Source: Lytechinus pictus (Eukaryota). From it: a DNA stretch of 64,000 nt. The notes under the pieces are model-generated. The model was given only the letters and a program-made list of their open reading frames with translations, made no database searches and was not told where the DNA came from. Position 1 is the first letter of the stretch. Each line of letters opens with the position of its first letter. The stretch is from assembly GCF_037042905.1 (NCBI RefSeq), contig NC_087251.1, forward strand, positions 30,816,001 to 30,880,000, written 5' to 3'. Below, in pieces: positions 36,526 through 63,009 of this stretch. The position numbers and the translations under genes are program-made.

Positions 36526-36640
36526 ATGGCTGCTTTCTGCCGTAAATTACGGCATATCCTCTTTTTCGTACTTTTAAACATAATTTGTGGTGGAGCAGAT
36601 TTGCCAGAAAAGGTCCTCTGTGCAGATTCAAAGTGCAAAG
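36526..36640 (+). CDS. MIA3: TANGO1/MIA3 exon 1: signal peptide plus start of the MOTH domain (MAAFCRKLRHILFFVLLNIICGGADLPEKVLCADSKCK)
   Basis: Basic n-region, hydrophobic h-region and small residues, followed by LCADxxC, the hallmark of MIA/OTOR/TANGO1. Donor AAG|GTGAGT, phase 1. Confidence 0.93.
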
Positions 36641-40916: not shown

Positions 40917-42770
40917 TGGGCATCGGTATTCATGAGACGGGGTCCCCAACTTATATAATTTGCATGGTTTTTTGTTTGGTTTATTCGATACTCACTGAAA
41001 CTATAACTCTCATAAGACTTCTGTTGATGTTTTTTATACTAATAATTTCCAATCGAGATTCTTTTATCACTGTCAATTATTGCTGTGTTCATTTGTATTG
41101 TTTGTTACTCACCTATAAAATAATAAATGTGCTGTGCTCATCACGAGCGTGAGAAATATTTTTAGTCATTCATAATACTCTAATATTACGAATTTGTTGT
41201 TCTTAACTGCGATTTAAAATGTTTTGAAAGTATAGGTTAATTGACAGGAAATGAGATTTCTATTTTTACATAATACATTATGTAGGCCTACAAATACAGC
41301 GTGTGTGAAAGAGAGGAAGAGGGGTGGGGTTGTAGGATGGTCGAAGGGAGAGAGCGATAGGGGAGGGGTCGTGGCGTGGACAATGACAAGGGGATGTTGA
41401 GATCGTGTGTGGGATTGGTGAAGAAGTCAATATTCGAAGCGAATACATTTTTATAGACGTGTCTATACTTCTACCGATGATGACGGCCGAATAATCTTTC
41501 TTTACATGTATATTTTGGTGAATTAAAAAAATATTTTCTTGCACCATGAGTGGGATGATCGAGGTACGTGATTCAATAAATTGCATCACAATATCACTAT
41601 AGGTGTAGTTTGAAAATCACGAACAGTTTATTAAAAATGAATAAAAGAGAAAGATCTTCTTAATTTTATAGCCCCCATCCAGCGTAAACACCATGAAGAG
41701 TTTTTGAGGTCACAAAATCAGCTGATTCGCACTCAAACAACAGGTTAAGAGGTCACACACGTGCATGGGACACATTCCAAGGGCGGGAATTCGGGGAAAC
41801 CCGTTTTCAAGCACAATGATTGGCTCAACCCAGAAAGTGAATACTAATTAGATCACGTGCCATCGGCTTTGGGGCGTCTCGTTCACATTCCAACTCATTT
41901 CATAAATATCATCCACTCGCAGTATAATTAGGCTTACGACGTTGTCAAGATATAACTCATATATTAAAAGCACAATTCCGATATAAAACATAAAGACATA
42001 AGTGAACTTGAGAAAATTCATCCCACGATATTCAAATTATACTAGCAACTCATTGTGGGCGTGAAAAAACGATATACATATCCGATATCCTCTAAAACGT
42101 TCACACATATCAACTTTAATAATTCGTACTTGAAACGAATATCTGTGAATGAATTGCCAATTCCACTTTGTTGAATGTGTACTTCTATCAAAAGCTATTG
42201 AATCACGTACCCCTCCCGACCCAAGGTGGATTTTCCAATCGCCATAAAGATTATGCAGCCACAATCACAGTAGACACATCCATAAATAAATATCAATTTC
42301 ATTCGCTACGAACAATCCCCTCCCCACAAAGTCACAAACATCCCATCATTTTCATCTACATTGCCCACGGCCACCCCCCATTATTCTCTTTTTCTCCTTT
42401 ACACAAATTAATTTCAAATGATATTTCATTTTAAATCGTAGTTAAGCAATTGTACAACAAATTCATAAAGCATTCACTGTGATGACTAAAAACATTTCTC
42501 AGGCCCGTGACAGGTGCGCTCATTATTTAATTGGCAGGCAAAGAGTAATAAAGAACAATACAAATGAAAATACACTGTAGGCCTACGTATAACTCACATT
42601 AAAAAATGAGTCGTAATGATAAAAAATGTGAATAATATTAATAAAATTATTAATTATGAAAATAACAGATTCAATGAATATATGAAAATAAATCAAAATA
42701 AATTAGTTTTGGATCCCATCTAATTTTGGAAGACTATCGGATCCCCGGATCAAGGATTTTGATGCCATGT
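40917..42770. mobile_element. Old foldback element with diverged inverted arms of about 600-650 bp
   Basis: Colinear inverted matches: gagaaatatttttagtcat (~41151) vs atgactaaaaacatttctc (~42482); cttaactgcgatttaaaatg (~41202) vs cattttaaatcgtagttaag (~42427); attcgaagcgaat (~41432) vs attcgctacgaa (~42301); ggtacgtgattcaata (~41563) vs tattgaatcacgtacc (~42196). Confidence 0.75.
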
Positions 42771-43745
42771 GTGATTTGTATTATGAATGTGACTGTTGCG
42801 AGCGCAAGTGCAGTGGCACAAAACTTGGTAGACACGCCGTCGCAAAATTAATCAACAGTTTCAAAAGATCGATGTAGAGATCAAGACTTTGGAAATAATG
42901 GAGTAAAATCGGAATTTAAATGTGAATAAATCATTTTGATGTAAGTAAATGAGTTGGACATTATATCAATCCATTCCATTGGCTTTGTCATTATTAACGT
43001 GATCTTTGAATAGTTTTCTCAATTCGCTCTACGGCAGTGTCATCAGAAATGCATTCAATTAATTCATGTAGATGTAGCTATAAAGGCTGGGGCCTAGGAT
43101 GAGATGAAACTATATTTCGATCGAATTTTGATAGTAATTTTGACACACTTTATTTTTGACAAAATAAGTGACAATATCAACTGAAATTCGTAATAATCTA
43201 AATTACATTGCCCAAGCCAGTAACCCACGATACCCCTCTCCTCTCACTTGTTTTGAGCGTATTTACTACCATTTTAAAGACGTAAATAATGTGAGCAATG
43301 CGATACGCAAATGCGAGGTAAACATCTTCGAGCTTCCCACAAAAGAAATTGGGCCTCGAGTCGAGGTCGTATCGTATATAGCGCACTAGTAGTAGTGAGT
43401 CAAAGAAATCCCGGGAAGAAATCGTGGACGAAATAATCGACAAGTTTATTTTAGGATCTGAAAAGCAGATTGTTTTTTATTATATTATTCAGTTTTTGTG
43501 TAGATCTAGGCCTGCTTTACAGTTGTCGGCCACGGTTGTCGGGGAAGTTCACGGTTGGCGGATTTGCCCTGAAAATTTTCAGGGTTGGCGGCGCCCGCCA
43601 ACCGTGACGCGTGGCAGCGAGAACGTTGCTCGCAGTATTGTCTGGCCATTCATTGATGACATTATATTCCTGGAGACTTCCATGTACCATGATTATCATA
43701 TATGAAAATAAATGAAAATCATATTTTGCTTCATTTTTCTTTCAG

Positions 43746-43876
43746 CTCCTATATCTAAAGTACAGACGGTGTTCAGTTATAATGCTCCAGACCCCCACTA
43801 CTTGTCTTTTAAGCAGTTTGAAGTTATTCAGGTATTTGCCAAGGATGCGGACAAATCTGGCTTTTGGACAGGAGAG
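43746..43876 (+). CDS. MIA3: TANGO1/MIA3 exon 2: SH3-like core (APISKVQTVFSYNAPDPHYLSFKQFEVIQVFAKDADKSGFWTGE)
   Basis: Acceptor tttttctttcAG and donor GAG|GTAAGG; phase 1-0. The pattern PIS...YxAPD..LSF....I.VF.K....FW.G is that of the MIA family. Confidence 0.94.
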
Positions 43877-44013
43877 GTAAGGTTTTCATATTAATTTCAG
43901 ACTACATTATTAACAGTTTATTTTGTAGAATGCATAAATGCTCATAAAACCAAATGTTACAATAATTATACATTATATTGAAGTGGAATAATAAATTTAG
44001 AAAATTTACTTAA

Positions 44014-44553
44014 AGGACAAGTCCACCCCAACAAAAAGTTGATGTGAATAAAAAGAGAAAAATCCAAATCGTCTAAATAGGATGTAAAATAAGAAAGTTA
44101 CGACATTTAAATTTTTTGCCTAATTTCACTAAACATCACTCACTACTAGTATTTCTTTTGTATTTTTTATACATGTATGAAATATGAAATGTTCTAATTT
44201 TCTCCTCATTGTCAAGTGAAACAACAATTCCTCCCTGAACATGTGGAATTAGCATTTTTTTAATACTATATGGTTCAGTCAAGTTGGTCCTTAATGTAAA
44301 ATGTGTAAAAAAATGAAATATTGTAGAATTCAAACAATAAAAAAAACGAAAGAAATAGTGAGTGAAGGACATCATCGACTGTCTAATTTGCATGTCTTTT
44401 TAATTGTGCATATCACTGTTATGTGAAAAATAAACGAAACTTTAAAATGACTTTCTTATTTTACATCCGATTTCGATGAAATTTTCAGTGTTATTCTCAT
44501 TTGATTTTTCTCTATTTATTCAAATCAACATTTTTCTGGGGTGGACTTGACCT
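44014..44553. mobile_element. Second copy of the Kolobok-like MITE family, in TANGO1 intron 2; decayed related fragments follow to about 44880 and occur at about 29030-29290
   Basis: TTAA|AGGACAAGTCCACCCCA...TGGGGTGGACTTGACCT, then TTTAA. Extensive identity to 32243-32842. Confidence 0.88.
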
Positions 44554-44915
44554 TTTAAATGATTCTTACGACTTCAGGGAAAAGTGAAAATAAAGACTAA
44601 TTATTTTACAACAGTAATATGTTAAACACATGCAGTATGAAAATGAGGGAACTGATGACATCACACATTCACTATTTATTTTTTATTTTATTCATGAAAT
44701 ATGAAATAGGAGATATATTTCCCTCTTTATAATATTTTTAAATATTTTTTTTTTTTAATGGTTTGATTCCTCTGTTAACACATAGAATATCCATTGCTAT
44801 AAACCTGTTGTGAATCAATCAAGAACTTCTTTATTGTCAAATATTTATATAGTCTATATTTCATATAATGAAATACAATTGAATAGTATGTTTGTTTGTA
44901 TTTTTCTTGTTATAG

Positions 44916-45014
44916 CTGCTTATGAAACCTGGGAATATTGGTCTCTTCAACAAAGATCATGTGAAAGAGTTAGTTGTATTCAACAAAAGTCCTGCCCAAC
45001 ATGTTGACATTGTG
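44916..45014 (+). CDS. MIA3: TANGO1/MIA3 exon 3: end of the SH3-like domain (LLMKPGNIGLFNKDHVKELVVFNKSPAQHVDIV)
   Basis: Acceptor tttttcttgttatAG and donor GTG|GTACGT; 99 nt, phase 0-0. GLFNKDHVKE corresponds to the family GYFPxxxVxE motif. Confidence 0.9.
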
Positions 45015-46013: not shown

Positions 46014-46540
46014 GGTCAATCATATCAATATGATTATTTATCCTTGTAAAAACACTTTAGAAATATGCCACAATCATCTTCAACCATTTTGAAATTTATA
46101 TTTTATGCTCTTTTGTCTCTGTTTCATGCCCTGGTGCTTTAAAAATGAGTTTGACTTGTATCTTTCAAAAGATAAGATAATCATGATATTGATAATGATT
46201 ATGATGATAATAATGATAATATTTATAATAATAATAAAGTTCAAGCCACACAGTTGATGTAAATCAGCATTAATAGAAAGCAATGAACTTATCAAACATA
46301 TATACCCAATCCAAAGATAGATATTAAGGTTGAAAATAATGAATGAATAAAGTAGCGGGTTGAGTAACGAATGTTTAAAAAATATTTTTGGAAATAATTA
46401 ATTGCCTATTAAAGGGAAGGATGTTGATTTAAATAAAAAATATCAACAAATTATTGTACAAAATTTTATCATTCAATAAGTTACTTATATATATTGTTGT
46501 GTTGTTATCCTTTGATTTTTTCCCCTCTATTTGCATAAAG

Positions 46541-48776
46541 GATGTCTTTGACAATAGAGGGATACCACATGGGTTAGGAGATAAAACACCCTCTGAACCT
46601 ACGGCAGAGGAAACAGAACATCTTGAAATAAAAGAAGATAATGGAACAGATGAAGGGCAGTACCTGAGTGGCCAGGAGCAGGGACAGGAGCATAGTGGGG
46701 GAGAACAGGACCTGAGCCATGATAATCCAGACCAGACCAAGGAGCAGAATGGATTGGTACCGGATAGGGACCATGATACAGCACAGCAGGGACAGGAGCA
46801 GAGTGAGGGAGAAAAGGTCCAAGAGCAGTTAGAATCGGAACAGATCCAGGGACAGGAACAGAGCAGAGAAGCCCAGGACCAAGTAGAGGATCAGGACCAC
46901 AATGAATCAGAACAGGAAAAACAACAAAGCAGGGAAGAGCAGGACCAGGGGGAGACTGGAAATCTGGACCAGGACCACATTGAACAAGAACGGGAACAGG
47001 ACCAGGAGATGAATGCACCAGGTAGGTTTAAATTTGTGGCAGATCAACAACAAAGCAAGGAGGAACCTGAATTAGTGAGAAATCATATCAAAGTTGGTGA
47101 TGGACCAAATAATGAAATTGGTGATGGTTTGTCTAATGATAACTTTCATAGAAGTGGAAGAAATGGAATCAAATTTGAACAAAATGCCAAAGTGCTGATT
47201 GATGAAAAATCAGTGGATAATTTTCAAAATGAAAGAAGAGATATTGAAAATAGAGAAAATAATCTAAGAATGGTTGTGCAAAGTGAATCATTGATCATAG
47301 GACATGAGGAGATAAATGGGAATGGACTTGATGTGAATAAAGCAATTCAAGGAACTGTGTCTCAACAGGATAATCTGGATATAAATAAATCAGATGCAAA
47401 ACCTAACTTACAAGCAGATATTTTCCCCACCCAAAGTGATGATTATTCTCAATATCAGTTTGAAAAAGCAAGTTTCGCTAATGACAAACATCAAGATTTA
47501 TCTTTGAAGGAATCAGATATTGTTAATGTACATCTATCAAAAGAAAGCGTTGATTTTACGGAACTTAGACCCAATCCAAAGATAGATATTAAGCTTGAAA
47601 ATACTGAATTATTTAAAAGAGATAAGGATACACCATCTGAAACATACATTCCTCATGATACAGGCAACATAGGGAATGAACAAGAAGAAATTGAAGTTTA
47701 TGACAATTATGGCAAGGAGAAAGAAGATGATGGCGTGGTGTTTTTCCATCGGGAATATGATGAAGAAGAGGAGGAGGATTTTCTTGATGAAATCCTAGAG
47801 GCTAGGGGCATCGAAGACAAACGTATCGAGGAAGAAAAGAACAAACCCAAAAAAAGAAATGCAAAGGTTGCTTCCCATGGAGAGGACTTGGATAAGGGCG
47901 ACTTAGAGGAAGTTGAGAAAAGCCACTACGACGGTCCTGTCAAGAACGAACCTGATGAAGAAAGGATGAGTGTCATCCACAAAGTTCAGCAACTGATTTT
48001 CGATACTCAGAAGCAGGAGAGAGTCATCAAGGAACTGACTGAGAAGGATCCCCCAGGAGGTCCCGAGAGGGGTGATATTATGGGTGTGGAAGAAGCAGCT
48101 TATTATCAGGAAATGGAGAGGGCTATGGAAGAAGAAGAAGAACAAACAGATTTGGACAATGTTGTATTTGAGAGTAGAAGGGAGCAGATGAAGGACCGTA
48201 AAGTAGCTGAAGCCATGGTTGAAGAAACACAAGAAGAAATAATGGTCTCAGATGATGAGGATGAAGAAGAATTCGATAAGGAAGAAATTGAAGAAAAAGA
48301 TTATGATGATAATAAGGAGGAGGATGAAGAAGAAGAAGAGGAGGAGGAGGAAGAAGAGGATGGGCTAAATATACAAGATGGAGAAAATGAAGAGACGAGT
48401 CAAGATAAGAAGAATGAAGATTTAGAATATACCAATATAATAGATCAAACCATCCTACCTGATGAAACCTTGACATTTAATGATAAGGATGACATTGGAA
48501 ATGAGGAATTTATTCAGGAAGGACTTGAGAGTGAAGGTTTGGATGACGGAGATGAAGGGGTATTAGGTTTAGTGGAAAATGATGAAATTGAAGAATGGAT
48601 AATTCATATGGATCAGAATATAAGAGAAGAATTGGACTACCAGAGGGAATTTGATGAAAATTCTAGGGAAGGAAGAGAGATGGAGGCCGTCCAACCATCT
48701 AGGACTCTTGACCCCGAAGGAGATGTGGAACACATTGACAGTGACACTGCTTTTCAGGAGAATATAATGGTCTTCG
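46541..48776 (+). CDS. MIA3: TANGO1/MIA3 exon 4: acidic low-complexity lumenal region, with an alternative internal donor after 47021
   Basis: Lies within the 805-aa ORF. Polypyrimidine tract and AG end at 46540 in phase 0. Donors CAG|GTAGGT (after 47021) and TCG|GTAAGT (after 48776) are both phase 1. E/D/Q-rich, as is typical of the TANGO1 lumenal region. Confidence 0.85.
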
Positions 48777-49942
48777 GTAAGTTGGATGGAAAAGTGCACA
48801 ATGCTGCCATAATATCAAACTGCATACAAGCTGCATGTGTCTCCTCACACTACTCCATTCATATTGCCTAACCTTGGACTTTCATAATCATCTCAACCCC
48901 ATTACACCAACTCAATTGCCAAACTAATACATGCATTATCAATTTAATTATCCGGTAAGTAATGTAAATATCTGTGAATTCTGGACAATATCCCTTTCAA
49001 CAATACATTGATTTATTGATGAAATACTTTGACTTTGCCTTTGTATTGATTTCAATGAGTGGGAAATCCATTTTTTTAACATAATACGTTCTGCTAGCAT
49101 AGAGTAAGTTGCAAAATAAAGTTTGTTTTATCTCAAATATTATACATTATGATGCAGTAGCATGCGCAGGGGGGGGGGTACAGGGGTTCAACCTCCCCTA
49201 AATTTGTTTTGGAACCTTTTTGTACGCAGGGAGGTGGTTACAGGGGTTCAACCCCCCCCTAAACATTTTTTGAAACCCTTTTTTCTTACTCGTCATTTTT
49301 TTGGTCTGAAACAACCTCCAATTTTTTATGAAAACCCCCTTTTTTGCTTGTCAACTTGTCATTCAGCTTGAACCCCCTCCCCTTCAAAAATCCTGCGTAC
49401 AGGGGGACTGTTATGTTGTGAATATACATGATATCAATTGCTATAGTGTTTTTGAATTGAAATATAATTTTTCCTTGTATTCTAAATAATGATTGATACA
49501 TCTGAATAAAATCATGAAAAGTCAACAGTTCACAATTTACAGAAATAAATGAAAACCCCCAAAAGCAATGTACATGTATACACATATATGTTCATTATTA
49601 ATTTAATTGTAAAAATATTATGTTTTACTTGTTGAATGTGCTTTGTGTGTACTGAACTAACCTACCGCAACTGTATGGATTGATGTCGATCATGTGTGCA
49701 TTTTGTTCTTTTGTTTTGTCCAAGTACAAGTAATTGATATTCATGCAATTTGCTTTTGATTGGTAAGATTTAAGTTTGCCTGTTATTTTATTGCTGCTAA
49801 TACTAATCTTTATTTATTGCTTTGTTTTGTTTCTTCTTATTTTGTCTTTCATGCTTGTCATTTTGTTTTGTGGATGTTCCTGTTTGTTTAATGTGTATGC
49901 TTCATCTTCATGTAAATATATACTGCATGCTGTTGCAAGTAG

Positions 49943-52900
49943 ATTTTGGAAAACAATTGGAATCAAGCAAATCAGAAAGTCAGAATGATGAAAATGAGGC
50001 AGAGGAAAATACTATAAATGTAGAAATAGACACTTCTAGCAATAACATAAATATTGAAAATATAGATAAATTTCAACAAGACGTAGACTGCCTTTGGTTC
50101 TATTCACTTCTAGTCCATCAAAGGAAATATCCTGTTTGCCCTATCAGCCACCAGATGATAGAGTTTATAGACACAGACAAATCAATAGAGTACATTTCTA
50201 GCCATGTGTTACGTGATAAACACGTCAATACGAAAGACATTGATAACTTTAGTGAATTGCTATACATTTTTGGCAAGTGTGATGCGTCATCGTTGAAATT
50301 TCAATCAGAGCACAGAGTATGCACAGCTGTGGAATATTTTATCAGAGCCTTTGAGAATGAGGAAAACCCTAATGTGAAGCAGAATCTGGAGCCTGGAAGA
50401 GAAGTCAATCACCCTTTTTGCATGGCCGACCAAAGTTTTGAGTACATGAATGTCATGCAGACAGTTGGTCTTTGCTTTGACAGTGATATTTCTGCGAAGA
50501 AGAGCGTAAACCCACAAACACAAACGAGACCAAAAGACATCAACAATGTTGACTGTATGAAAATAGATTATCAGGATATAATGCAGATATATCTATTTCA
50601 TTCTACGTGTTCTTATTATGGGAAGGATATTGATTCTGAACCATCATGTTTAGAGCCTGTTCAAATAAATAAAGTTTTTACTGAAGATTCAATTGACATT
50701 GATGACAAACAAAGAACAGAGAAAGATAATAAGCTCAAAGCATCTGAGGGAATCATCAAGGTGTCCCCAAATGCTGCTGCCAAAGTTGAGTTTTTGTCTC
50801 TCCTCTTAATGAGTTGGTATCCACATTTAGAAATCACTCCAGCGAATGGGGTTGAAGCAAAGAAGACACCACCAATTGACCACACAAAGACAGAGAAACA
50901 TCCACCTAGAAATGATACGTCCATGGAATTAGATGATCTAGCTGGAAAACCTGAAATTCCTGACAGTCAAACTGACCTTGGTGAGCCAAAAATAGGTAAG
51001 GAATATATGTGGCTGACTTGTCCCAACGAACAATTACTTGAACTTGAATTCTCAAAATTGTTTATGTGCACCATTGATGGAATGGAGAGCACTTCAACGG
51101 TATCTGAAGTGGTAAAAAACTTGGAGAAAGAAAGCAATCATGTTATACAAGATGAAGGATTGCTCTCAGATTCATCACAAATTGCCATTATGCAGAATAA
51201 TAATGGGACAACACCTTGGTCAACTCTGAGTGCCAACAAGTGTCAAGGTAGTGAATGTCCTGAAAATAAAGCTGAAAGAAGAAGCGTTTTTCATGACAAA
51301 CCAAGGATGTCCCAGACCCAAAGCCAGTACTGCAGCCGTCCAATGTACGTTGATCTCTTAGTTCCATCAGGAGGATTGTGTGAAGTTCAGCAAAAGACTT
51401 CAAAACAAGAAGTATTTTACAGAAGCACAGCTTTGTCTTGCAGCAAGCTCAAAAGATACAAAGATATCCTACTAGCTTACAACCAACCAAAGTTTTGCAT
51501 AATTCAGGACTTTTCAATTGCCCCAAAAGTTCCCACTGAGGCTATGTCTGTCAACACTTCAAGCAGACTGGATGGATATCATCATGAATTTGCTGATGCT
51601 TATATGAAAAAGTATTACTGTTTTGGTAGCCAGTCTATTTTACCACCAGAAGTGGATCATCATGAGGACAAATCTGGGTCTATCAATACCATCTTGGTCT
51701 CCAAGAAACTCACTTTACGATGGAATCAGAGCACCTGTAGCAAGATTGATGGATATTTTCATACACTTAATGATAATTTTAGAAAGGAAAAACAGTGTTT
51801 AATTGATGGTGATCAAGTGGATGTAAAATCAAAAGAAAAATCTCAAAAAGTGTGTTCAAAACATTCTCAATCCTGTTTGTATGTAGACTTGTTCATGAAA
51901 ATAATTTCCTTCTACAAGAGGATTTGTTTTATGACAGATGGCCATATGCTGATGCATCGTGAATTCGAAAGCATCTTAATTGAAGCAAACCTAGACTCAA
52001 AGCCCAGTATTAAGACATTCAAACAACCAAATGAAACAATCGAACACAAAATCCTCCATGGGCATGGATCATGCCGTTTAGACCTCTTTGAGGACATTGT
52101 AACATTTCGATCAAAGCAAAGATTTTCCAGGAATGGCATTATCAAGGAAATAGAGATGTGTCCCTTGAGAAAAATTACATTGATGGAAGAAGTTGGTGTT
52201 CCTTCAGAGGCAACTGATGAAAGTATCCTGCATTCTGAGAAACATGAACAGAATGTGCCTGTAGATCTTACAGGAAGTACTCCAGAGATTAGGTTTTCTT
52301 ACAGTCACAATGATTCTTGCTTCCAGGGATCCAAGCTGGATGATTACAAGGCACTCCTCAGTTTTATGTGTACTCCCCTTCAATTCCAATCAGGTCAAGA
52401 TAAACAGTTACCTGAAAAGGAAGGAAATTATTTTGTAGAGATTGAGACTATTCTCTGTCCCATCAACACTTGCTGTCCATTTTCCAAGGTGGATGGATAC
52501 AAGGCACTGTTCAACCTAATGTGTATACCTTTATACCTCAAATCAGCTGAAAATTCAAGTGAAGGAAAGATTTTAAAAGAGAGTGAGGTTCACCAAAGTT
52601 ATACCAATCCTTTGCTCCATTGCTCAAAGATAGATGAATACAAAACACTCTTCATCCTCATGACAGATACTCCTGTACAACTGCAATTGTCTTCAGATTC
52701 GCATTTCCCAACTAATCTAGGAATAAGTTTAGATGTGACTAGGTCTGCTCTCAGTTCAATCTCTTGTTGTCAGTGCCCTAAGATGGATGAATATAAGACA
52801 CTGTTTGAAATAAAGAAACACGCTCCTCCTGACTTCCAATTGACCCAAGCCACAGCATTCCCTCCAAAGGAAAGAAAGGATTTGATAGAACTGAAGGTTT

Positions 52901-55900
52901 CTCACAGTCTTCCCCTCCAATCGGATTCAGATGAACAGTTTCCAAATGACAAAGGAAAGGGTTTGGAAGAGATAGTAGTTTCTTACAGTCCAAGTAACTC
53001 TTACTGTCTGTGCTCAAAGATTGATGAATATAAGGCACTATTCACCCTTAAAACTTGTGTGCCTCTACACAGCCAGTCATCTTCAGATGAACAGCTCCCA
53101 ACTGACAGAGGAAAGGGTTTGGAAGAGATCGAGGTTTTTCACAGTCACAGAAACTCCTGCCGTCCGTACTCTAAGATGGATAAATATAAGGCACTGTTTG
53201 AAATTATGAAACATACTCCTCATGACTTCCAATCTACCCAATCCATAACTTTTCCTTTAAAGGAAGGAAAGGATTTGATAGAACTGAAGGTCTCTCGCAG
53301 TCCCATCAAACCTTGCCAATATTCAAAGGTGGATGGATATAAGGCACTGTTTAACCTTGCAGCTTGTGATCCTCTACCCCTCCAATGGGATTCAGATGAA
53401 CAGTTTCTAAATGACAAAGGAAAGGGTTTGGAAGAGATAGTGGTATCTAACAGTCCAACTAACTCTTACTGTCTGTCATCAAAGATGGATGAATATAAAG
53501 CAATGTTTAAACTTACAGTTTGTGATTCTCTTCACCTCCAACCAACTCCAGTTGCACAGTCCTCAACTGACAAAGGAAAGGGTTTCAAAGTGATTGGGGT
53601 TTTTCGAAGTCACAATGCCTCTTGTTGCCAGTGCTACAAATTAGATGAATACAAAACATTGTTCGACCATACAATTTGTTCTTCAGCCCACATTCAATCA
53701 GCTAAAGATTCTCAATATCTTACAATCAAAGGAAAGGGTTCGGAGGAGATTGAGGTTTCTCAAAGTTCCACCAAATCTTGCAGCCACCTATCTAAGATAG
53801 ATGAATATGAAGCAATGTTTTACCCTGCAACTTGTTCTTCAGTACCGCTCCAATTAGCTGAGGGCTCACAATATCTTAAAGTCAAAGAAAATGCATCAGA
53901 GGAGACTGAAGTTTCAGAGAGTCCCACCAAGTCTTGTCACCATTGTTCCAATATGGAAGAATACAAGGAACTGTTTCATCCTACAACTTGTTCTTCAGCA
54001 GACATGCAATTAGGTAAGGGCTTACAATATCTCACAATCAAAGGAAATGGTTCTGAGGAGATGGAGGTGTTTATAAGTTTCTATCAACTCTTGAATAACC
54101 ACTTTTGCCTCTGTAACCACTCTGGAAATCTAACCAAATGGACGTCTTCTTGTCAGACCGATCTATTCATGCTGCTTGTATTTTCTGTAAGTCATTGTAT
54201 TCCAGATGTGTTCCCATCAGATTTACAGCCTTGCTCAAAACTGGAAAGTACCCATGAACACTTCTCAAAGCAAAATAACCAATCAAAATCTAAAAGCTCG
54301 GAATATGAAATTTACCTTTACAAAGTGATTTTGAAAAAAGAAGATGTCTGTCTTCAAGTAGAGTTTCAGAACCATAGCTGTACTGCTCTTGACCTTTTGA
54401 ATCATGATGATTTACAAACAGAGAAAGGAAATGTACATTTTGAATATGAGATTTACAGACTCCTCATGGAATCTGAGAAATTGTGTTCTGTGAAACAATT
54501 TGATGATTCATGCTCATTGTTGGAAGGATTTGATAGAGTATCTAGAGAGGAAAGTCATGATCTATTGAGACCCGATGGAGGATATTATGATCTGCTCATC
54601 TATAGATCCGTCATGATGCAAGAAGATGTATGTCTTCCAGACAAGTGTTTTGACAAGCGTAGTACAGCTCTTTACTATGTGAAAACTAGTGATTCAAAAA
54701 GTATAAAGGAATTAGATAGGACCGATTATGAACTGTACAGATATTTTATGTCAGCTAAGAAATGGTGCATCGTGGAACAATTCATAGACTCTCAGTCATG
54801 CTCCGTCTTTGAAATTTTTGATGGACAGACTTCAGTGGTAAATTCTAGAGTACTGAAACCTTACGACCTTCTCATCTATAAAGCAATATTGAACCAAGAA
54901 AATGTATGTCTTGCAGTCAAGAATCCACATCAGTACTGCACAATTCTCGATGTCTTTGACATGTGTGATTCTCAGATTCCAGATGGCAGCAAATATGATC
55001 TCTATAGGAACCTGATGGTCGCCAGTCAGTTCTGCTTTATTGAGGAATCTATGACTGACATGTGTCCCTTAATTCAATATCTTGACATTAAATCTATTCC
55101 AGAAGTAGACATGATTTCGATCAAACCCACAACTCATGATGATATTGGTGGAATACTTTATTATCAATTAATGACAAACATTGATTGGTGCATCAAGGAT
55201 GAGAACTTTTTTACTGAAAGATACTGTCTGCCTGAAGATCATTTCTCAAATACTTCTGGAATGCAAGAAAGGGAGGCATTGATATTTAACAAGAGAGCAT
55301 CTGGATCACTGTTATTTCAGTTGTTGATGACTTGTAACGGGATGAGCTTCCAAGAAGACCATTCTACAGCAGGCTGTACTTGTGATATCGTCAGTTATTT
55401 CTGCTCAGGCAGCAAAGACGATGAGAAAAAAGATGTTCGGGAAACAGGCTTTCAACGGAGGCCATCTAATCTTGCACTGTACTTTAGCCTATTAACAGGA
55501 TCAAGATTTTGTCTCGCCGATGATGAAAAGCTGCATACATCTTCAAAGATAAGTCTAATCTTTGATCACTTCATTCAAGATAACAAAGAACCGAATCAGC
55601 CTGAATCTTGTGAGGATGGAACATACCATGGCATTCTGGACTTGTATAAAGATCTGATGATGGGCCAACAAATGTGCTTTGTAAATATAGATGAACATTC
55701 ATGTGTGGCAATACATCAGTTTGTAGGCAATGTAACAGAGACTGCTGCAAGTGGTGCATTCAAATCTTCCAGTGATCCTAAACAGTATGTTACATTCTGT
55801 GCTCTTGCACAAGGGTTCCCAATTTCATTCCCAAATGATAAACAATCGTTTTCGTACTGCACTTGGTTCGATTTCAACCTTTCATCCAATCTGGCTTCTG

Positions 55901-56359
55901 CATTGTCAGGAAAAAGTGCAACTCAAAATGACACAACTCTTGTCATCAGCAATTATGAAGAAATGATTATGTCTCCTTGGAAGTGCATGGTGTATGTTGA
56001 CAAAATGGCTAACTGCATGTGTCATGATGCCCATCCTCATGATAAATATCTTGAAAAAAAATCACAACTCAATGAGAAATCCTACAGTGCTTCTAAACCA
56101 AAGAGAAATAAAAAAAAGAGACAGCGACAGAGAAGTGACATTAAGTTTGAAAATAATTTGGTCAAATTGAAGTCCATGATTGACTCCTTCAGCCAGTGCA
56201 GACTGCTTCATGAATCTGACTACAGAAGTGTCTGCTTTTTCTTTAGTCATCGTGTGTCCCAAATCATGGAAAACTCTGTAGTGTATACTAGCCCTCTTAT
56301 TGACACCACTCGCAAGAGGAGGTCAGTTTATTCTCTTCAAGTTGATTATGTTTCAAGTG
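49943..56359 (+). CDS. MIA3: Giant Cys-rich repeat-coding exon (about 2139 aa), probably a cassette exon of TANGO1/MIA3
   Basis: Lies within the uninterrupted 2200-codon ORF. Tandem acceptor cAAG-TAG (49937-49942, both phase 1) and donor GTG|GTAAGT (phase 1). The length of 6417 nt is a multiple of 3, and the exon sits on the same strand between two phase-1 TANGO1 junctions. Coding status is near certain; inclusion in TANGO1 mRNA is inferred. Confidence 0.72.
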
Positions 56360-59132
56360 GTAAGTCACCAAACTTTCATTGCACCACTACATGTATGCTA
56401 GTAGAAAGGTTATTGTTTATTTAATAGATTAGGTATACATGTAGATATGATCACAAATATCCTTACGAGTGATTAAAGTTCTTGTAAATCTCTCACAAAT
56501 ATGTATGGATTCTGGAGTTTCAGGAATTTCATTAAGTCCTATGAAGTTTATATTGTCAATATTCATTTTAAAGAGTATCAGAAGAAAGTTAAGTCCATGT
56601 GTTCTGAGTTATTTTGCCATAGGTTCAAGATGATCATATAAATGTGCAGGTTATTACTCAATGAAATCTGAAGAATTTTGTCCCACTTTGACCTCTAAAT
56701 GGTAGTAGTGTATTCCCATAGTCTGAAAATTCTGTGTCAACAATTCCTTTTGTGAGGAATCTTTGGAGCATTTTGGCCTGGACAGAATAGGGGTTTTGTA
56801 AAATTTTTTAATTGTAATCTTTCATCTTACAACAACATTTATGTCTTTCAAGGTCGTTGAGGCATTGTCATTGTAAATCCTTATTCCAAAGTCATTTTTG
56901 GGGGACTCCAAGAACTTGAGGCATACTTATCATCATTGTAGGAATTTGGTGACCCATTTAGAATTTCTTCTGACCTTAGATATTTCTTAAAGCTTGAATA
57001 GTCTTACGATGTTCAAAAGACGTTAGTACACTGCCTTGTGATATTGTAAAGCCCATTTCACACTTGGTGGAGCAACTACGTACAACCGTTGTGATTGTGT
57101 GCAACATATATTGTGACCAAACGGTCGCAAGAGCGATTGTGAGAGCCCTTTACGGCATTCTTAAAATCTTGAAGTGCAATTTGAATTGACTGCAACTAAT
57201 GCAGATCTTTGATCTCAAGATTCGATCTCCCTAATAAAACTTCTTTAAAAAGCCAATCCAAAATTTTTATAACACATTGTTCACTCAGTATTTACAGCCA
57301 TTCGTAAGGGTATTTGTGATTGAGGAAAATGACATCCCAGACGTACATGTAGGATACCTTCATTTTCTCCTCTTCTTCCCACCCCTTTATTTTAGACAGA
57401 TCTAGTTGAATAGTTAAACATCTAGTTGAATAGAACACTTACATATCAAAGGTATCTTAATATATGCTCTGTTACAAAATGTAATTTACACTGATACATT
57501 GTGAACTATACATTAATAATAAAAAGTGAAAAGCAATATTACATTGGAAAAAAAAAATATCCATGCTCATATCAGACAGGAAGTCATAGTTAGAAACGTG
57601 AAGGAAGGAACTGCATGTAAATAAAAAACGTATCCATTTGCATCATATTACTACTACAGTATAATGTGGAAGTCTGCAATTAGTTAAATCCTCTTATCAG
57701 TTCATACATGTAGACTCGTTTTAAGACAACAAAAAAACTATTTCAGAGTGCTACTATTCATCAAAACTAGATCAGATCTATCCAGTAGTGATTGACCATC
57801 ACAAAGCAGCAGAAACGTTAATTAACTTTGATTAGTGATTTTGTAACTCTGCATCCATTTACATACAGATATTAATCACACATATTCTGCATATTTTAAC
57901 TATATTTCAAGCAAAAAAATTCAATTGGTATCTGATTTTCATTTTCATTTTTAAAGAACATTGATAAATGATGTGTGTTATAAAGAATCAATTAAAACTC
58001 TTTCTTGATCATTTTTAATTTGAAATTGAAGATATTAAATCTAGCATTCAGCTAATAAGCATAACACTAATGGTCAGCTTTGCAATGAATAAAGGTCATT
58101 GCTTAGCCCATAATCTATTTATCCAATGGGTCATCATATATGTGGGACTAACCAAGGTTTAATGAGGGTAATTCAATGTACATATTCTCATGGAAGGAGG
58201 AATGTCAAGTGGATCGATCTTTCATTGCAAAAGCCTGTTAATAACTTTCTGGCCACATGATAGCCAAGGAAAATATGTACAATGTAATCTGAGCCCTCGT
58301 GCTTGCATTACACGTCTTTAACAAGTAGATTATTAAGGTTGAAACGATCATTTGAACTTTAATGAATCTTTCAATAAAGAATTTAATCCTAGTTTCTCTA
58401 TGAATATGAAATTCAGATACCTTAAAAAAATGATTCGGAAAGTAGAAAACCCAGTCACATTTACTTTAGGTTTTATTGATTTACAGTGATATTCAACTTC
58501 ATACTGTCTTAAAAATCTTAAAAATACACTTTAATCACTATGACTTACTTAAATACATGGCATGATACAATGTGAACCTGCTACAAATGTAGATAACAGA
58601 TCTCCCTTTTCATCATTGATATACAGTAGACTAAACTTCTAAAAATTTGTTACAAAAGCATGCCTTAATTGCTCATGTGTATGTGATTGAAAGGGCGATA
58701 TGCATGGCTGTTATGTCTATATGTTCCTTATTGATGTACTTACGTATGCAAATAGCATGGTCTTAATTTAATGTTCTTGTTTAATGTATAAGAGTATGGG
58801 CAACATGAGGCAAAGTAATTGATTCCTATCAGCTTAGTGTGTGCATGAGTGATACATATATTCAAGCTGGTGATATTTCTAACAAAAATTTAAAAACGTT
58901 TCTTCAAAAAGGGTACCTCTCAAAATACCCCTCAGAGGCATGTGGATACTAAATTGAATGTTTGATGGTTGCTATATTTGTATGTTGCAGCTGCATCTGT
59001 ATTTAGACTTGATTGCTGGCATGACACATACTGAGAGAATGCAGTCTTCAACAAAGAATGAAACTGGGGATAAGGACTTTAACAAGGGGAATAATAATAT
59101 GACAGAACATAATTATAGAATAGAGGTAACCG

Positions 59133-59350
59133 GGGGCCTGTTACACAAAGCTTAGCAATGATCGTAGAGCATTTTTCTATGATTGATTCCATTGAGTACA
59201 ATGTACAATCAATCATGAAAATCAAGCATACGATCAATCGCTAACCTTTGTGTTACGGGACCCAGGACCCCCATATCACAAAGCTTAGCAATTGATCGCA
59301 TCGATTATTGTGTATGATCAATCATAAAAATCAGCACAATCAAATCAATC
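59133..59350. mobile_element. Palindromic Harbinger-like MITE (59133-59262) followed by a partial second copy
   Basis: GGGGCCTGTTACACAAAGCTTAGCAATGATCGTA ... TACGATCAATCGCTAACCTTTGTGTTACGGGACC. CACAAAGCTTAGCAAT is repeated at about 59277. Confidence 0.75.
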
Positions 59351-60163
59351 ATGTTTATGTTTTGAGGGTCCAGTTTTGAAAATTGGTAATGAATAATGAA
59401 ATTACAAAGTTAAGAATGGTTGGAAGAGTCCTCGTTTACTGTTAATGGCAAGTCTTAAATTTATTGTCAGTCACAGGGTTCGACTTCATACATGTAGGTT
59501 GCCCGTGGGCATTTGGCTCCCCAAATCCTTGTCAAGTTGTGACATGCTCCTTAAAAATGTTTGAATAAGCTCATCTGACCCCTTAAGTTTTTCTTGCAAA
59601 TTATATGATAAAGTTGAATACACATTGTGAAATATAGTTTAATTTCAAGCAATATGTGTGTGAAGTGTGTGTAAAACATATTGAAACATTTTTCTTATGC
59701 AAAAATTTGCTATTTTTTTAAACAACATATCTAGTCCAAGGCATGCCATAGACAGTATATTGAGACCTCAAAGATTCATAGCTCTTATTTTGTAACCAAT
59801 TAATATTGAACTTGCAATTAATTTTATGTATTCTCTTCTCTTATCTAATTGATAGTGAATTTTCCCCAGGGTGTCGCTCTCCTTTATCTTAATAGCATGG
59901 AATATAGATACTTGTATGCTGTAATGTGATAGAGTGCAGGAAATATATAATCCAAGCATGTGTGTAGCACAATGTATATTATAATAAAATGCCAGGCTTA
60001 GAATGAGCTCATTTGACTTTTAGAATTGCTTTAATATTTAGGGAATGATATATGAATATTAATGAAATTGGAAGTGCATGAAAAAAGATGTATTTTACTC
60101 TCCTACATGTACTGCGACTTCGCCTGGGACTGCTGCTATTTATACTTTCTTTAAGTATTCTAA

Positions 60164-60164
<1 letters not shown>

Positions 60165-60245
<81 letters not shown>

Positions 60246-60300
60246 TTACTACTACTACTTCTACTTCTACTACTTCTACTACTTATACTGCTTCTACTAC
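60165..60300. repeat. (CTA)n microsatellite
   Basis: Long perfect CTA run that decays at its 3' end. Confidence 0.98.
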
Positions 60301-60653
60301 TTATTAATCTAATATCTATCTACCAGGTCTTCATCTACTGCAAGAAATAATATTACAGCTTATAAGTGATCTGAAAATAAATTATTTTTAAATTATTTAA
60401 TAGTAAAGAAATATGATAATTTTTCAATTACATGTTATTCAAACATATAAGTATATTTTCACTATGTCGTCTTTGTCATGCATGCAATCATTAATCCATT
60501 CCAACATACAAATCATTCATATATATGTACATGTACATTGTTATTTAACCACATTCATTGTACTTGTAAAATTGTATTTGTCTCCAGAAAAGTAAGTTGG
60601 ATCATATTTTATCAATATTTATCAAAATTATAACATACTTAAGTGTACATGTA

Positions 60654-61261
60654 CAGTTGAGGCCGAAAGTTTACATACACCCATGGAATTTAGTGAAATT
60701 TGTTTGTTTGCCAAACATCGTAAAATTTACTATATCTTCAGAAATATAAATACTACTATGATGAATTTGATGTCAAATGAAAGAGTATATAAAGCTCTTT
60801 TAGGTGGAATTTTTTTGAGAAAAAAAATATATATTTGTGCCAAATGTATTCTTTTGTTTGTTATTATATTTTCAAACATTGTTTCATAGAACTATATAAA
60901 TGTTAAATTTATGGTTTATATTCCTTTTCTATCATGATATGTCACCACTGAATAAAAAGTTTCATCTGAAATGTTTGTGTTGAGAAGTAACTAGCACAAA
61001 TATTAAATTTTTTGGTCAAGTTTTTATTTTTGATTTGACTAAAATATGAAAAAAAAATTGGGGAAAAATGATACTTAAATATTTTTCAGCTCCTGATGAC
61101 AAAGCAATGTGATGAAGGGGCATGACATACTCATCTGTTTGATATCAAATTTGTCATGATAGCACAAATATTTTATAAGATACAGTGAATTCTATGTTGC
61201 TTCGCAAGTGTCAACTTTTCTTTGAATTACCTGGGTGTATGTAAACTTCTGGCCTCAACTG
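60654..61261. mobile_element. Tc1-like non-autonomous element (608 bp)
   Basis: TA|CAGTTGAGGCCGAAAGTTTACATACACCCA ... TGGGTGTATGTAAACTTCTGGCCTCAACTG|TA: 30-bp TIR and TA TSD. Confidence 0.93.
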
Positions 61262-61666
61262 TATTGTTACACTATGCTTGATCTGTATTATTAATCAAAT
61301 TGTACAAATGATATGGTTTTAATTTATTACTAAATTATATTTCCTAATTTTCCATTATTTATTTCCATAGTTATTTATGGGATTGACATGTCTTACAAAT
61401 TGAATAACTGCCTCTTGTAGAAAGTATTTATGAAGTCAGGAGAATCAAAATTGTATTATTGATTTGCTTAATAGGAAAAGTTTTATACATTGTAATTAAG
61501 AATGAAATATTAAATTCAACTATGATCAATTCTTTTCATGGATATATTTAGAGTTTGATACATAATAGAATAATGATCAGTGTAGTAAAGTTTAAATGAA
61601 TTTTTATTGTGATTTTTTATAGAAATTAGAACATTTTGTTGTATTTTGTTTTCTTTTCTTAATCAG

Positions 61667-63009
61667 ATGAAGGAAAAGAACCAGAGGGTACAGGAAACTC
61701 AGAGGAACATGTAGATGACGATGACACACAGAAAGAAAATGAAGAAGAAATAGAAGAAAAAACACAGGACTCCGAAACAAGCCAAAAGAATGAAGAGGAA
61801 GATGTGATTGGGGAAGCTGTGGAAACGGATGAAGTGGAGGATAGTGAAAGGAAGCATGATATTGAGGAAGACATTGTGAAGCAAAATGATGAGATTCAGC
61901 CAGATTCTATTCAGCCAAGCCCGTCATTTGAAGTAATAGATGGCACCACTATCTATTTGAATGATTTAGAACCTACACCTTTGCCTGGAGAACCTGCTAG
62001 CGAGAAATACAATACATTTAACATCCATTCTAGCGACATTGTAGATGTGCCCAAAAAAGAAGATAGTGATGAAAGCGATGTTGGTCCTCCATCTAGTTTT
62101 TCTTTCAAAAGTGAGGATGAGATTGATCCTGAAGCTTACAGGAACATCCTGAACAAACTCCATGCCAACCCTGAACTCCGGGACAAAGAAGGTGCCATTC
62201 AGCAGGAGATGCTGAAGATCCTCCGTGACCCTGAACTGAAGAAGAACTTACTTATCAAGGCCCATGAACCTAAAAGGGACATCTTGTCACCTTTCAGATC
62301 GCAACATCCAGCACCTGGGGATGCTGTGCACATGGATCAGGCACAGGGTCACGTGGACGATAATGTTGATCTACAGAAACTGGATGCCATGCAAGATGAA
62401 TCTGTGCCACTTGACGATTCAGATACAGCTATACCCCCATTAGCTACGGGACCTAATGTTGTAAAAGGAAGACCAAGTAGCCCTCTTGATAAAGATGAGG
62501 AAGATATCAATTTTGTAGATCCATTAGCTCTCTTACAGGAAGACACAGAAGAACCTCCTCTGTCCATTAATGAAAAGATTGATATCGCAGAAGAGATCCT
62601 GAAAACCAAGGACTTCTCAAGTGAAAACCTTCAACCACCGGTGCCGCCTGACGATCCCTATGACCCTGTCAAGCTTGCAGCCAAATTGAACACGGTCAAA
62701 GGCTCAAATCCTGCTGTCTTTGGGGATCCGGCCCAAGAGGTTTTTAACGATGATCCAGCTCTGTCGGCTCTCGAGGACCAGAACGATCCAGTGGAGCAGG
62801 AGAGCCAAGAACCGTCATTGAATCATTCCCATGTCACAATGCCCTCAGACACAGAACAGGTAGAAGATAAAGTAGAAACCATTGATGATGAAGAAGTTCC
62901 TTCTCCACACTTAGATTCCCATCTACCACCTGGCGTGGATACCAGACCGAATGTTGAGGAACTGGCTGACAGCAGCTATGGGGAGCCTGGATTACGCACC
63001 AGCACACGG
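61667..63009 (+). CDS. MIA3: TANGO1/MIA3 next lumenal exon (DEGKEPEGTGNSEE...GLRTSTR), acidic and Pro-rich
   Basis: Strong acceptor ttttgttttcttttcttaatcAG in phase 1. The frame is open for 1343 nt and includes the 432-aa ORF. Donor CGG|GTGAGT, phase 0. Confidence 0.85.

What the first reader, a model, noticed from the sequence alone, without database searches (positions are those of the whole stretch)
52312..54070. Repeat family A: eleven ~51-52-aa units with core C-x(0-3)-SK[IVML]D[EG]YK[AT]LF-x(3-4)-C
Seen: cores at about 52330, 52483, 52624, 52777, 53014, 53170, 53323, 53479, 53635, 53791 and 53947, mostly spaced 153-156 nt. Each is followed by PL.LQ..SD.Q....KGKG.EEIEV..S...S. More diverged copies lie upstream (CSKLKRYKDILL, SRLDGYHHEF, CSKIDGYFHTL). 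Inference: a Cys-clamped amphipathic helix displayed on flexible spacers, like beads on a string giving multivalent binding. I do not recognise it as a named repeat.
Basis: partly seen in the sequence, partly recalled or inferred. Interest (0 to 1): 0.78.

Follow-up and report, generated by a model that had tools for sequence, protein, structure and literature searches.

The report
Cysteine repeats in giant TANGO1 exon
The repeats are real protein-coding units inside a huge, rarely used optional exon of a sea urchin's TANGO1 gene (the ER export factor for bulky cargo), which would add about 2,100 cysteine-rich residues of an undescribed repeat type to the cargo-facing arm of the protein.

Summary
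The eleven cores are at the stated positions. They lie in a 6,420-nt, phase 1-1, stop-free exon (49940-56359) of the Lytechinus pictus TANGO1/MIA3 gene. It sits between two acidic, cysteine-free lumenal exons and holds 87 Cys. The 10-residue core is under purifying selection (pN/pS 0.30 against 0.83 elsewhere in the unit). A homologous, separately homogenised array exists in unnamed public records. A looser aromatic-xx-aliphatic...Cys motif recurs about every 50 residues over most of the exon. No Pfam, PDB or Atlas family matches. The RNA laid here mostly skips the exon (0.1-2.4% of the next exon's depth), and no junction into it was seen. A distant branch point with a 163-nt AG-free zone favours a regulated cassette exon over RefSeq's model, which starts inside it. 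Best reading: an optional lumenal tether carrying short Cys-flanked helices for multivalent binding. The helix is plausible. The Cys clamp and binding are unshown (AlphaFold pLDDT 27; 3 of 11 units lack the second Cys). The scan noted this exon before in the same genome, not on other DNA.

The parts
36526..36640 (+). TANGO1 exon 1 coding part: signal peptide and the first Cys pair of the MOTH/SH3-like domain
   Evidence: matches the N-terminus of L. variegatus TANGO1 P0005; best 11-residue hydropathy 3.06 in P0005
43746..43876 (+). exon 2, SH3-like (MOTH) domain
   Evidence: spliced to exon 3 in all 4 runs laid; orthologue P0005 hits Pfam SH3_2 and PDB MIA
44916..45014 (+). exon 3, end of the SH3-like domain
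   Evidence: joints 43876/44916 and 45014/46541
46541..48776 (+). exon 4, acidic, Cys-free lumenal linker with two donors (47021 and 48776), both phase 1
   Evidence: 745 aa, 0 Cys, 227 D/E; joint 47021 to 61667 in X19 and X1
49775..49939 (+). 3' splice region of the giant exon: 163-nt AG-free zone, twin CTAAT branch-point candidates at 49797 and 49803, a 75% pyrimidine tract, then tandem acceptors before 49940 and 49943
   Evidence: 5th longest of about 3,450 AG-to-AG gaps on the + strand; the other four acceptors have 27-68 nt; predicted, no read crosses it
49940..56359 (+). giant exon 5: 6,420 nt, phase 1-1, about 2,140 aa, 87 Cys, no transmembrane segment
   Evidence: translated in RefSeq models P0001/P0003 and joined there to exon 6; low sense-strand coverage
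51736..51768 (+). diverged upstream core copy (weaker look-alikes at 51439 and 51562)
52312..54084 (+). repeat array A: 11 units plus one half unit; the unit is about 52 aa with a conserved 10-aa core flanked by Cys
54013..54019 (+). internal donor (last exonic base 54013, phase 1) just after the 11th core, used by older RefSeq models P0002/P0007
54166..55990 (+). older, diverged continuation of the array: 12 aromatic-xx-aliphatic...Cys motif hits, mostly 45-55 aa apart or twice that
   Evidence: 57% identical to P0009 over 543 columns, Cys 70% kept
56095..56133 (+). polybasic cluster, also present in P0009
56311..56322 (+). R-K-R-R furin-type site, the only R-x-[KR]-R in exons 4-6; P0009 has its R-x-[KR]-R in the polybasic cluster instead
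61667..63009 (+). exon 6, acidic Cys-free lumenal segment; transmembrane, coiled-coil and proline-rich parts lie beyond the window

Best explanation
The repeats are the youngest, best-preserved part of an old tandem array of about 50-aa units that fills a giant, frame-preserving, usually skipped cassette exon of sea-urchin TANGO1. When the exon is included, probably in a specialised secretory cell type or stage, about 2,140 residues are inserted into the ER-lumenal arm, between the signal peptide/MOTH domain and the membrane anchor, giving a protein of roughly 4,300 aa. Each unit gives a short capped helix flanked by cysteines on a loosely constrained linker. In the oxidising lumen the cysteines form local loops or cross-links, and some 25 such beads act as a multivalent, low-affinity surface that gathers or holds a bulky secretory cargo or other TANGO1 arms at ER exit sites. 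A basic site at the exon's end could let a furin-type protease release the arm. SHOWN: host gene, exon geometry, skipping as the main splice form in the runs laid, protein-level constraint on the core, conservation in another lineage. INFERRED: splicing of exon 4 into this exon and so the lumenal topology (about 0.7), the helix, the disulfides, binding, tissue specificity and cleavage.
For: Host gene: RefSeq names in the cluster, SH3_2 at 25.4 bits over a 21.8 cut-off, MIA structure hit E 2.6e-4, one strong TM segment and a 27-28% Pro tail. Exon: 6,420 nt, both ends phase 1, canonical donor. P0009 aligns up to the same point and also reads G-K-S there, as a conserved donor would give. Cassette, not first exon: AG-free zone with branch-point motifs and pyrimidine tract, the layout Gooding et al. 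link to alternatively spliced exons (PMC1431707, abstract section); CpG o/e 0.17 at the exon start against 1.15 at exon 1; the RefSeq start has only a weak hydrophobic stretch (1.35 against 3.06). Constraint: core pN/pS 0.30 against 0.83 for the rest, at equal pS; column permutation fraction 0.00035; in 600 neutral simulations the best-window ratio never fell below 0.60, observed 0.42. Cross-lineage identity: core 70%, spacer 39%. Lumen: 3 of 4 N-glycosylation sequons in the aligned part are kept in P0009 with a changed middle residue. Transcription: the few exon reads are all on the sense strand, and 6 of 9 exon bins have X1 contigs while two repeat-free intron bins have none.
Against: No read or contig joint into or out of the exon among the 15 joints displayed (139 more were not shown). 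Exon depth is 0.1-2.4% of exon 6, about 4 reads in three libraries. RefSeq starts its models inside the frame (49891, 50422, 54169). No other annotated genome gave a protein with this exon, and the only L. variegatus TANGO1 seen lacks it. On one unnamed 12,251-nt contig the homologue is called as four fragments. AlphaFold2 pLDDT 27 and 28. 3 of 11 units lack the downstream Cys. Sequon numbers are small (19 against 14.1 expected, P 0.10; non-sequon Asn kept 6 of 19). No binding partner is identified.
Confidence: 0.45

Rival explanations
1. Same lumenal cassette exon, but the units are structural rather than binding sites. The arm is a disulfide-cross-linking spacer or scaffold that lengthens TANGO1, or it is cut off at the basic sites and leaves with the cargo as a matrix-like component.
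For: 87 Cys in an otherwise Cys-free arm; 1-4 Cys per unit head, often an odd number; copy number varies from 3 in P0009 to at least 6 in P0008 and 11 here; R-x-[KR]-R near the exon end in both lineages. Furin cleavage of the fly Tango1 lumenal part is reported in PMC7829582 (passage, citing Zhang 2014).
Against: The most conserved residues are the Lys, Asp, Tyr, Lys and Phe of the core, not the cysteines (invariant Y12; K8, D10, K13, F16 at 90% or more). The furin-type site is at different places in the two lineages.
Confidence: 0.22
2. RefSeq's model is right: the exon is an alternative first exon, giving a TANGO1S-like isoform without signal peptide or MOTH domain. The array is then probably cytosolic, the Cys are acylated or bind metal, and the acidic-Tyr-x-x-Leu cores act as short linear motifs (LIR-like or tyrosine-based; resemblance recalled, not tested).
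For: All five RefSeq models with the exon start inside the frame; an in-frame ATG lies at 49891; no exon 4 to exon 5 joint was seen; mammals have a signal-peptide-less TANGO1S (PMC5007089, passages); a polybasic cluster lies at 56095-56133.
Against: The DNA upstream looks like an intron end with a distant branch point and is CpG-depleted. The three RefSeq starts differ between models, as 5'-truncated models would. Both exon ends are phase 1. Shared sequons.
Confidence: 0.18
3. A once-functional or never-functional exon that is now near-silent: the frame and repeats are kept by recent duplication and gene conversion, and it is seen only as splicing noise.
For: Very low inclusion; spacer pN/pS 0.83 lies within the neutral range of 0.79-0.91; fragmented homologue on one contig; absent from other annotated urchin proteins found here.
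Against: 2,139 codons without a stop in 37-40% GC DNA, against 104-220 stops in the other frames. P0009 keeps 863 codons open at about 57% identity in its C-terminal part. A second L. pictus haplotype keeps 1,215 and 730 codons open at 97-98% identity. Core constraint.
Confidence: 0.1
4. Transposon-derived or non-coding minisatellite that happens to be open.
For: Unit length of 153-156 nt and tandem arrangement. The whole genome could not be searched.
Against: No copy elsewhere in the window (nhmmer best outside the array E 0.61); all unit lengths are multiples of 3; second codon positions are kept at 0.93 against 0.59 for third positions in the core; no Pfam domain in the frame; homologues are co-linear with the rest of the exon.
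Confidence: 0.03

Closest known systems
TANGO1/MIA3 (MIA/cTAGE family), invertebrate type
   Same: The host gene has the signal peptide, SH3-like/MOTH domain with the first disulfide only, long acidic lumenal arm, TM segment, coiled-coil-like region and Pro-rich tail (PMC10119292 and PMC7829582, passages).
   Different: None of the papers read describes an optional giant Cys-rich lumenal exon or any repeat module in the lumenal arm (searches). The isoforms described there are TANGO1L and the shorter TANGO1S.
RefSeq LOC129264571, 'uncharacterized protein' isoforms X1/X2 (XP_063958541/2; older XP_054758443-5)
   Same: The same locus; the models translate the array and join the exon to exon 6.
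   Different: They start inside the giant frame, lack exons 1-4, carry no domain annotation, and do not flag the repeat.
C-terminal helix of vertebrate TANGO1 (residues 137-148), which binds its own MOTH domain (PMC10119292, section read)
   Same: A short helix near Cys in the lumenal arm, binding weakly (KD about 320 uM); a model of how a bead might work.
   Different: One copy, reported as vertebrate-specific. No sequence comparison was made, and the complex prediction gave no verdict.
Giant alternatively used exons such as that of ankyrin-G (PMC12202978, passage); tissue-specific splicing of COPII machinery such as SEC31A exon 24c (PMC12265942, passages)
   Same: One optional exon converts a general protein into a specialised form; splicing tunes large-cargo export.
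   Different: An analogy only: those inserts are cytosolic, and no homology was found or tested.

Membership tests
TANGO1/MIA3 (host gene) | N-terminal signal peptide | tested here: met
   Exon 1 translation; hydropathy 3.06 in the near-identical P0005 start. Hydropathy only, no signal-peptide predictor.
TANGO1/MIA3 (host gene) | lumenal SH3-like/MOTH domain; first disulfide present, second absent in invertebrates | tested here: met
   On orthologue P0005: SH3_2 above cut-off, MIA 1I1J E 2.6e-4, Cys 32 and 37 and no further Cys until 911. Window exon 2 alone gave no PDB hit.
TANGO1/MIA3 (host gene) | transmembrane segment, coiled coils and proline-rich tail | tested here: met
   From RefSeq proteins, beyond the window: TM hydropathy 2.2-2.3 and 27-28% Pro in the last 300 aa; coiled coil shown only by weak helical-family hits below cut-off.
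TANGO1/MIA3 (host gene) | localisation at ER exit sites, COPII binding | not testable with these tools
   needs cell work
cassette exon with distant branch point | long AG exclusion zone with branch point and pyrimidine tract at its 5' end | tested here: met
cassette exon with distant branch point | both skipping and inclusion junctions observed | tested here: inconclusive
The 3' junction appears only in RefSeq models.
any named Pfam repeat or solved fold | profile or structure match | tested here: not met
   Pfam: 0 families for the 2,205-aa frame, sub-threshold only for the array; PDB sequences best E 1.1; Atlas best 0.75 and none; Foldseek on a pLDDT-28 model uninformative.
TE-derived minisatellite | no protein-level constraint | tested here: not met
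TE-derived minisatellite | dispersed copies in the genome | tested here: inconclusive
   none in the window; genome not held
   Both present in 8 of 11 units here and in all 11 cores listed for P0008-P0010; no usable 3D model.
LIR / tyrosine-based short linear motifs | cytosolic location and partner binding | not tested
   resemblance recalled from memory only

The most novel reading that the evidence does not exclude
One regulated exon turns sea-urchin TANGO1 into a roughly 4,300-aa form whose lumenal arm carries about 25 disulfide-looped helical beads of an undescribed repeat family. This would be a splice-switchable, multivalent cargo net (or a sheddable scaffold) at ER exit sites, expanding by lineage-specific concerted evolution, and a second cargo-recognition principle in TANGO1 beside the MOTH domain, in animals that lack HSP47.
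Probability: 0.3. Interest if true: 0.75.

Novelty: new variant of a known kind. Interest (0 to 1): 0.5.

Why it matters
The role of TANGO1's lumenal part is called elusive or less understood in PMC7829582 and PMC10932740 (passages), and how invertebrates select bulky cargo without HSP47 is posed as open in PMC10119292. A conserved, optional 2,100-residue lumenal module with a selected repeat core gives a concrete handle: find the tissue that includes it, then pull down its partner. It also suggests the RefSeq model is 5'-truncated. The limits are real: the module is so far confined to a few urchin-like sequences, barely expressed in the samples tested, and without structure or ligand.

Tried and rejected
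Own genome not held, so no genome-wide repeat search was possible. The run search listed no holder on record as RNA. X14 and X15 (kind not on record) hold 0.82 of the words of 46540-56360, close to the 0.88 expected for exon 4 plus exon 5. I laid 4 of the 20 listed runs, and about 6 in 100 reads of each raw run were read. AlphaFold2 on three A units (pLDDT 27) and on the C-terminal 736 aa (pLDDT 28) gave no usable model, so the Foldseek run on the latter is meaningless. The complex prediction of the MOTH domain (P0005 24-120) with one unit head gave no verdict (score 0.03, no alignment used) and counts neither for nor against. ESM Atlas: nothing usable. JGI metagenome scan with P0009: 24 pattern matches, none confirmed. 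Rfam on 43000-64000: none. Pfam on 11 other short ORFs: none. Protein self-BLAST printed no off-diagonal hit and was not used. Findings look-ups by sequence, words and relatives found no look-alike on other DNA. Rejected: a stand-alone intronless gene (splice signals and RefSeq joins tie it to exon 6), and a signal anchor from the hydrophobic codons 49816-49872 (no in-frame ATG before them; they are the pyrimidine tract). The generic motif pattern was written after seeing the sequence, so its shuffle test overstates significance. No supplements were read; isoform tables there could bear on the novelty claim.
Full report
Observation. Eight of ten spacings are 153-156 nt, one is 141, and one is 237 with a spacer-only half unit. 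The units are 50-82% identical in DNA; units 4 and 6 (82%), 5 and 8 (76%) and 9-11 (68-72%) show block duplications. The written consensus fits only 3 of 11 units strictly. An upstream Cys is present in 11 of 11 and a downstream Cys in 8 of 11. Of the three upstream look-alikes, only the one at 51736 beats shuffles.

Context. The window is eukaryotic. The array matches RefSeq LOC129264571 of Lytechinus pictus at 100%, and its cluster contains proteins named TANGO1 homolog. In the window I find exon 1 with a signal peptide (36526-36640), two exons of the SH3-like domain (43746-43876, 44916-45014), an acidic exon 4 (46541-48776, second donor at 47021), the giant frame, and acidic exon 6 (61667-63009). 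The L. variegatus orthologue P0005 hits Pfam SH3_2 above cut-off and the MIA structure. It has no Cys from residue 38 to 910, as expected for the invertebrate MOTH intermediate described in PMC10119292 (passages and one section read). TM segment and proline-rich tail are in the RefSeq proteins, beyond the window.

The giant exon. Acceptors before 49940 and 49943 and a GTAAGT donor after 56359 define 6,420 (or 6,417) nt with both ends in phase 1, so the exon can be skipped or included without a frameshift. It encodes 87 Cys in 2,139 aa, while exons 4 and 6 have none, and it has no transmembrane segment (best hydropathy inside the exon 1.53). The acceptor is weak at close range (52% pyrimidine against 76-86% for the other four). 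It ends a 163-nt AG-free zone that begins with two CTAAT motifs and a 75% pyrimidine tract, the fifth longest such gap of about 3,450 on this strand. Gooding et al. (PMC1431707, abstract section) link this layout to alternatively spliced exons. RefSeq instead starts its models inside the frame, at 49891, 50422 or 54169, and joins them to exon 6 from 56359 or from an internal donor at 54013. The region around the exon start is CpG-depleted (0.17 against 1.15 at exon 1) and the RefSeq N-terminus is only weakly hydrophobic. I read those models as 5'-truncated; this is inference.

Expression. I laid 4 of 20 listed runs: three stranded raw RNA runs, about 6 in 100 reads each, and one contig set guessed to be RNA. 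Exons 2-3 and 3-4 are joined in all four runs, and 47021 is joined straight to 61667 in two. One X1 contig ends 30 letters past the long exon-4 donor while the exon-6 contig begins at 61666. This fits direct skipping from that donor too, but the letters were not shown. No joint into or out of the giant exon is among the 15 displayed; 139 were not shown. Depth on the exon is 2.4, 0.1 and 0.9% of exon 6 in the raw runs (about 4 reads in all, all sense) and 2.2% in X1, where 6 of 9 exon bins have contigs and two repeat-free intron bins have none. So skipping is the rule in these samples, and inclusion is suggested only weakly.

Selection. Among the 11 units, synonymous divergence is the same in core and rest (pS 0.52, 0.51), but pN/pS is 0.30 in the 10-codon core and 0.83 elsewhere. 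Shifted frames give 0.79 and 3.7 for the same columns; the antisense frame that shares third positions gives 0.45. Clustering of conserved columns has a permutation fraction of 0.00035. In 600 neutral star-tree simulations, mean pN/pS was 0.79-0.91 and the best 10-codon window never fell below 0.60 of the overall pN, against 0.42 observed. The spacers are thus close to neutral and the core is constrained. The star tree is a simplification.

Relatives. Two word-based searches with the exon found only L. pictus models (2 of 5,686 and 2 of 2,423 candidates). The unit profile found three unnamed ENA proteins among 7,013 candidates, and HMMER over 1.84 billion representatives found 6 proteins: one L. 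pictus model and five ENA records. P0009 is co-linear with the exon from before the array to the donor, has 3 cores, and is 57% identical over 543 columns of the C-terminal part. It keeps Cys at 70% and reads G-K-S at the point of the donor. P0008 and P0010 carry at least 6 and 2 further cores; units within P0008 are 78% alike against 38% within L. pictus, and the ten orthologous units form one side of a branch (support 84/83), which points to separate homogenisation. Across lineages the core is 70% identical and the spacer 39%. P0008, P0010, P0011 and P0012 come from contigs of one length (12,251 nt) and look like frameshifted pieces of one frame, either sequencing error or decay. That these records come from other sea urchins is my inference from homology. 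Three of four N-glycosylation sequons in the aligned part are shared with a changed middle residue, against 6 of 19 other Asn kept; overall sequon excess is slight (P 0.10 here, 0.047 in P0009).

The wider array. A looser motif (aromatic-x-x-aliphatic-aliphatic, Cys 2-6 residues on) occurs 25 times in the exon, against a shuffle mean of 2.4 and a maximum of 8 in 2,000; 16 hits lie outside the array. The pattern was chosen after inspection. Downstream of array A the hits keep 45-55 aa spacing or twice that. Array A is therefore most likely the youngest expansion in one old tandem array.

Structure. The cores have Ser at the N-cap in 9 of 11 and Asp/Glu three residues on in 11 of 11, and averaged hydrophobicity peaks at 110-120 degrees. 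Reading these as helix-capping signals rests on my own knowledge. Amphipathicity does not beat shuffles unit by unit. AlphaFold2 gave pLDDT 27 and 28, which with such shallow alignments says little. No Pfam, PDB or Atlas family matches.

Mechanism. The best-supported reading (0.45) is an optional lumenal tether with Cys-flanked helical beads that bind a partner multivalently. Rivals are a structural or sheddable disulfide scaffold (0.22), an alternative first exon giving a cytosolic, TANGO1S-like form (0.18; PMC5007089, passages), a decaying exon (0.10), and a TE-derived minisatellite (0.03). The first two share the lumenal topology, about 0.7 together. A furin-type site at 56311 recalls the furin cleavage of fly Tango1 cited in PMC7829582 (passage; the primary paper was not read), but its position is not conserved in P0009.

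Novelty. Searches of the paper library for TANGO1 with sea urchin, Lytechinus, invertebrate splicing, cassette exon or giant exon terms listed no paper on such an exon (listings only; subscription papers and supplements not seen). The sequence is in RefSeq as an uncharacterised protein. An earlier first-stage note on the same genome (e1-7881345) reached the same exon reading; I had stated mine before seeing it, and it is not independent support. Verdict: a real, selected, undescribed repeat module in an optional giant exon of a known gene; a new variant of a known kind; interest 0.5.

Noticed in passing
window 49098-49103: A 6-nt candidate microexon with a good pyrimidine tract and a GTAAGT donor; in phase 1 it would read Ala-stop, so it may be a poison exon. 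No read support seen.
   Followed up: partly
window 49725-49762: A 38-nt (or 32-nt) candidate exon behind a second AG-free zone of 157 nt (49566-49722) with CTAAC at 49657; the 38-nt form has an in-frame stop in phase 1.
   Followed up: partly
window 56360-61666 and 49924: GCATG occurs 14 times in the intron after the giant exon against 6.9 expected (P 0.011, one test chosen after inspection), and TGCATG lies just before its acceptor. This hints at Rbfox-type control (motif recalled).
   Followed up: partly
window 46541-48776: Exon 4 has two phase-1 donors, so the acidic lumenal linker varies by 585 aa on its own; the long form's share differs strongly between runs.
   Followed up: partly
window 56360-56424: The frame runs on 21 codons past the donor, and P0009 shows some similarity there too. 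Read-through would give a soluble form without the membrane anchor. No RNA support.
   Followed up: no
P0001 vs P0003, after exon 6 (beyond the window): RefSeq isoforms differ by four residues at this junction, in both annotations; probably a tandem acceptor.
   Followed up: no
P0004: A 524-aa L. pictus protein nearly identical to the TANGO1 cytosolic tail has four accessions of its own, which suggests partial duplicates of the 3' part of the gene.
   Followed up: no
window 42600-43700: CpG-undepleted patch (o/e 1.2-1.3) inside intron 1, like the exon-1 region; possibly a promoter, an enhancer or a young insertion.
   Followed up: no
window 44010-44700, 58623-59920, 60576-61260, 49165-49281: Intronic high-copy repeats (very high read depth with loose ends) and a short two-copy 57-nt element.
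   Followed up: no
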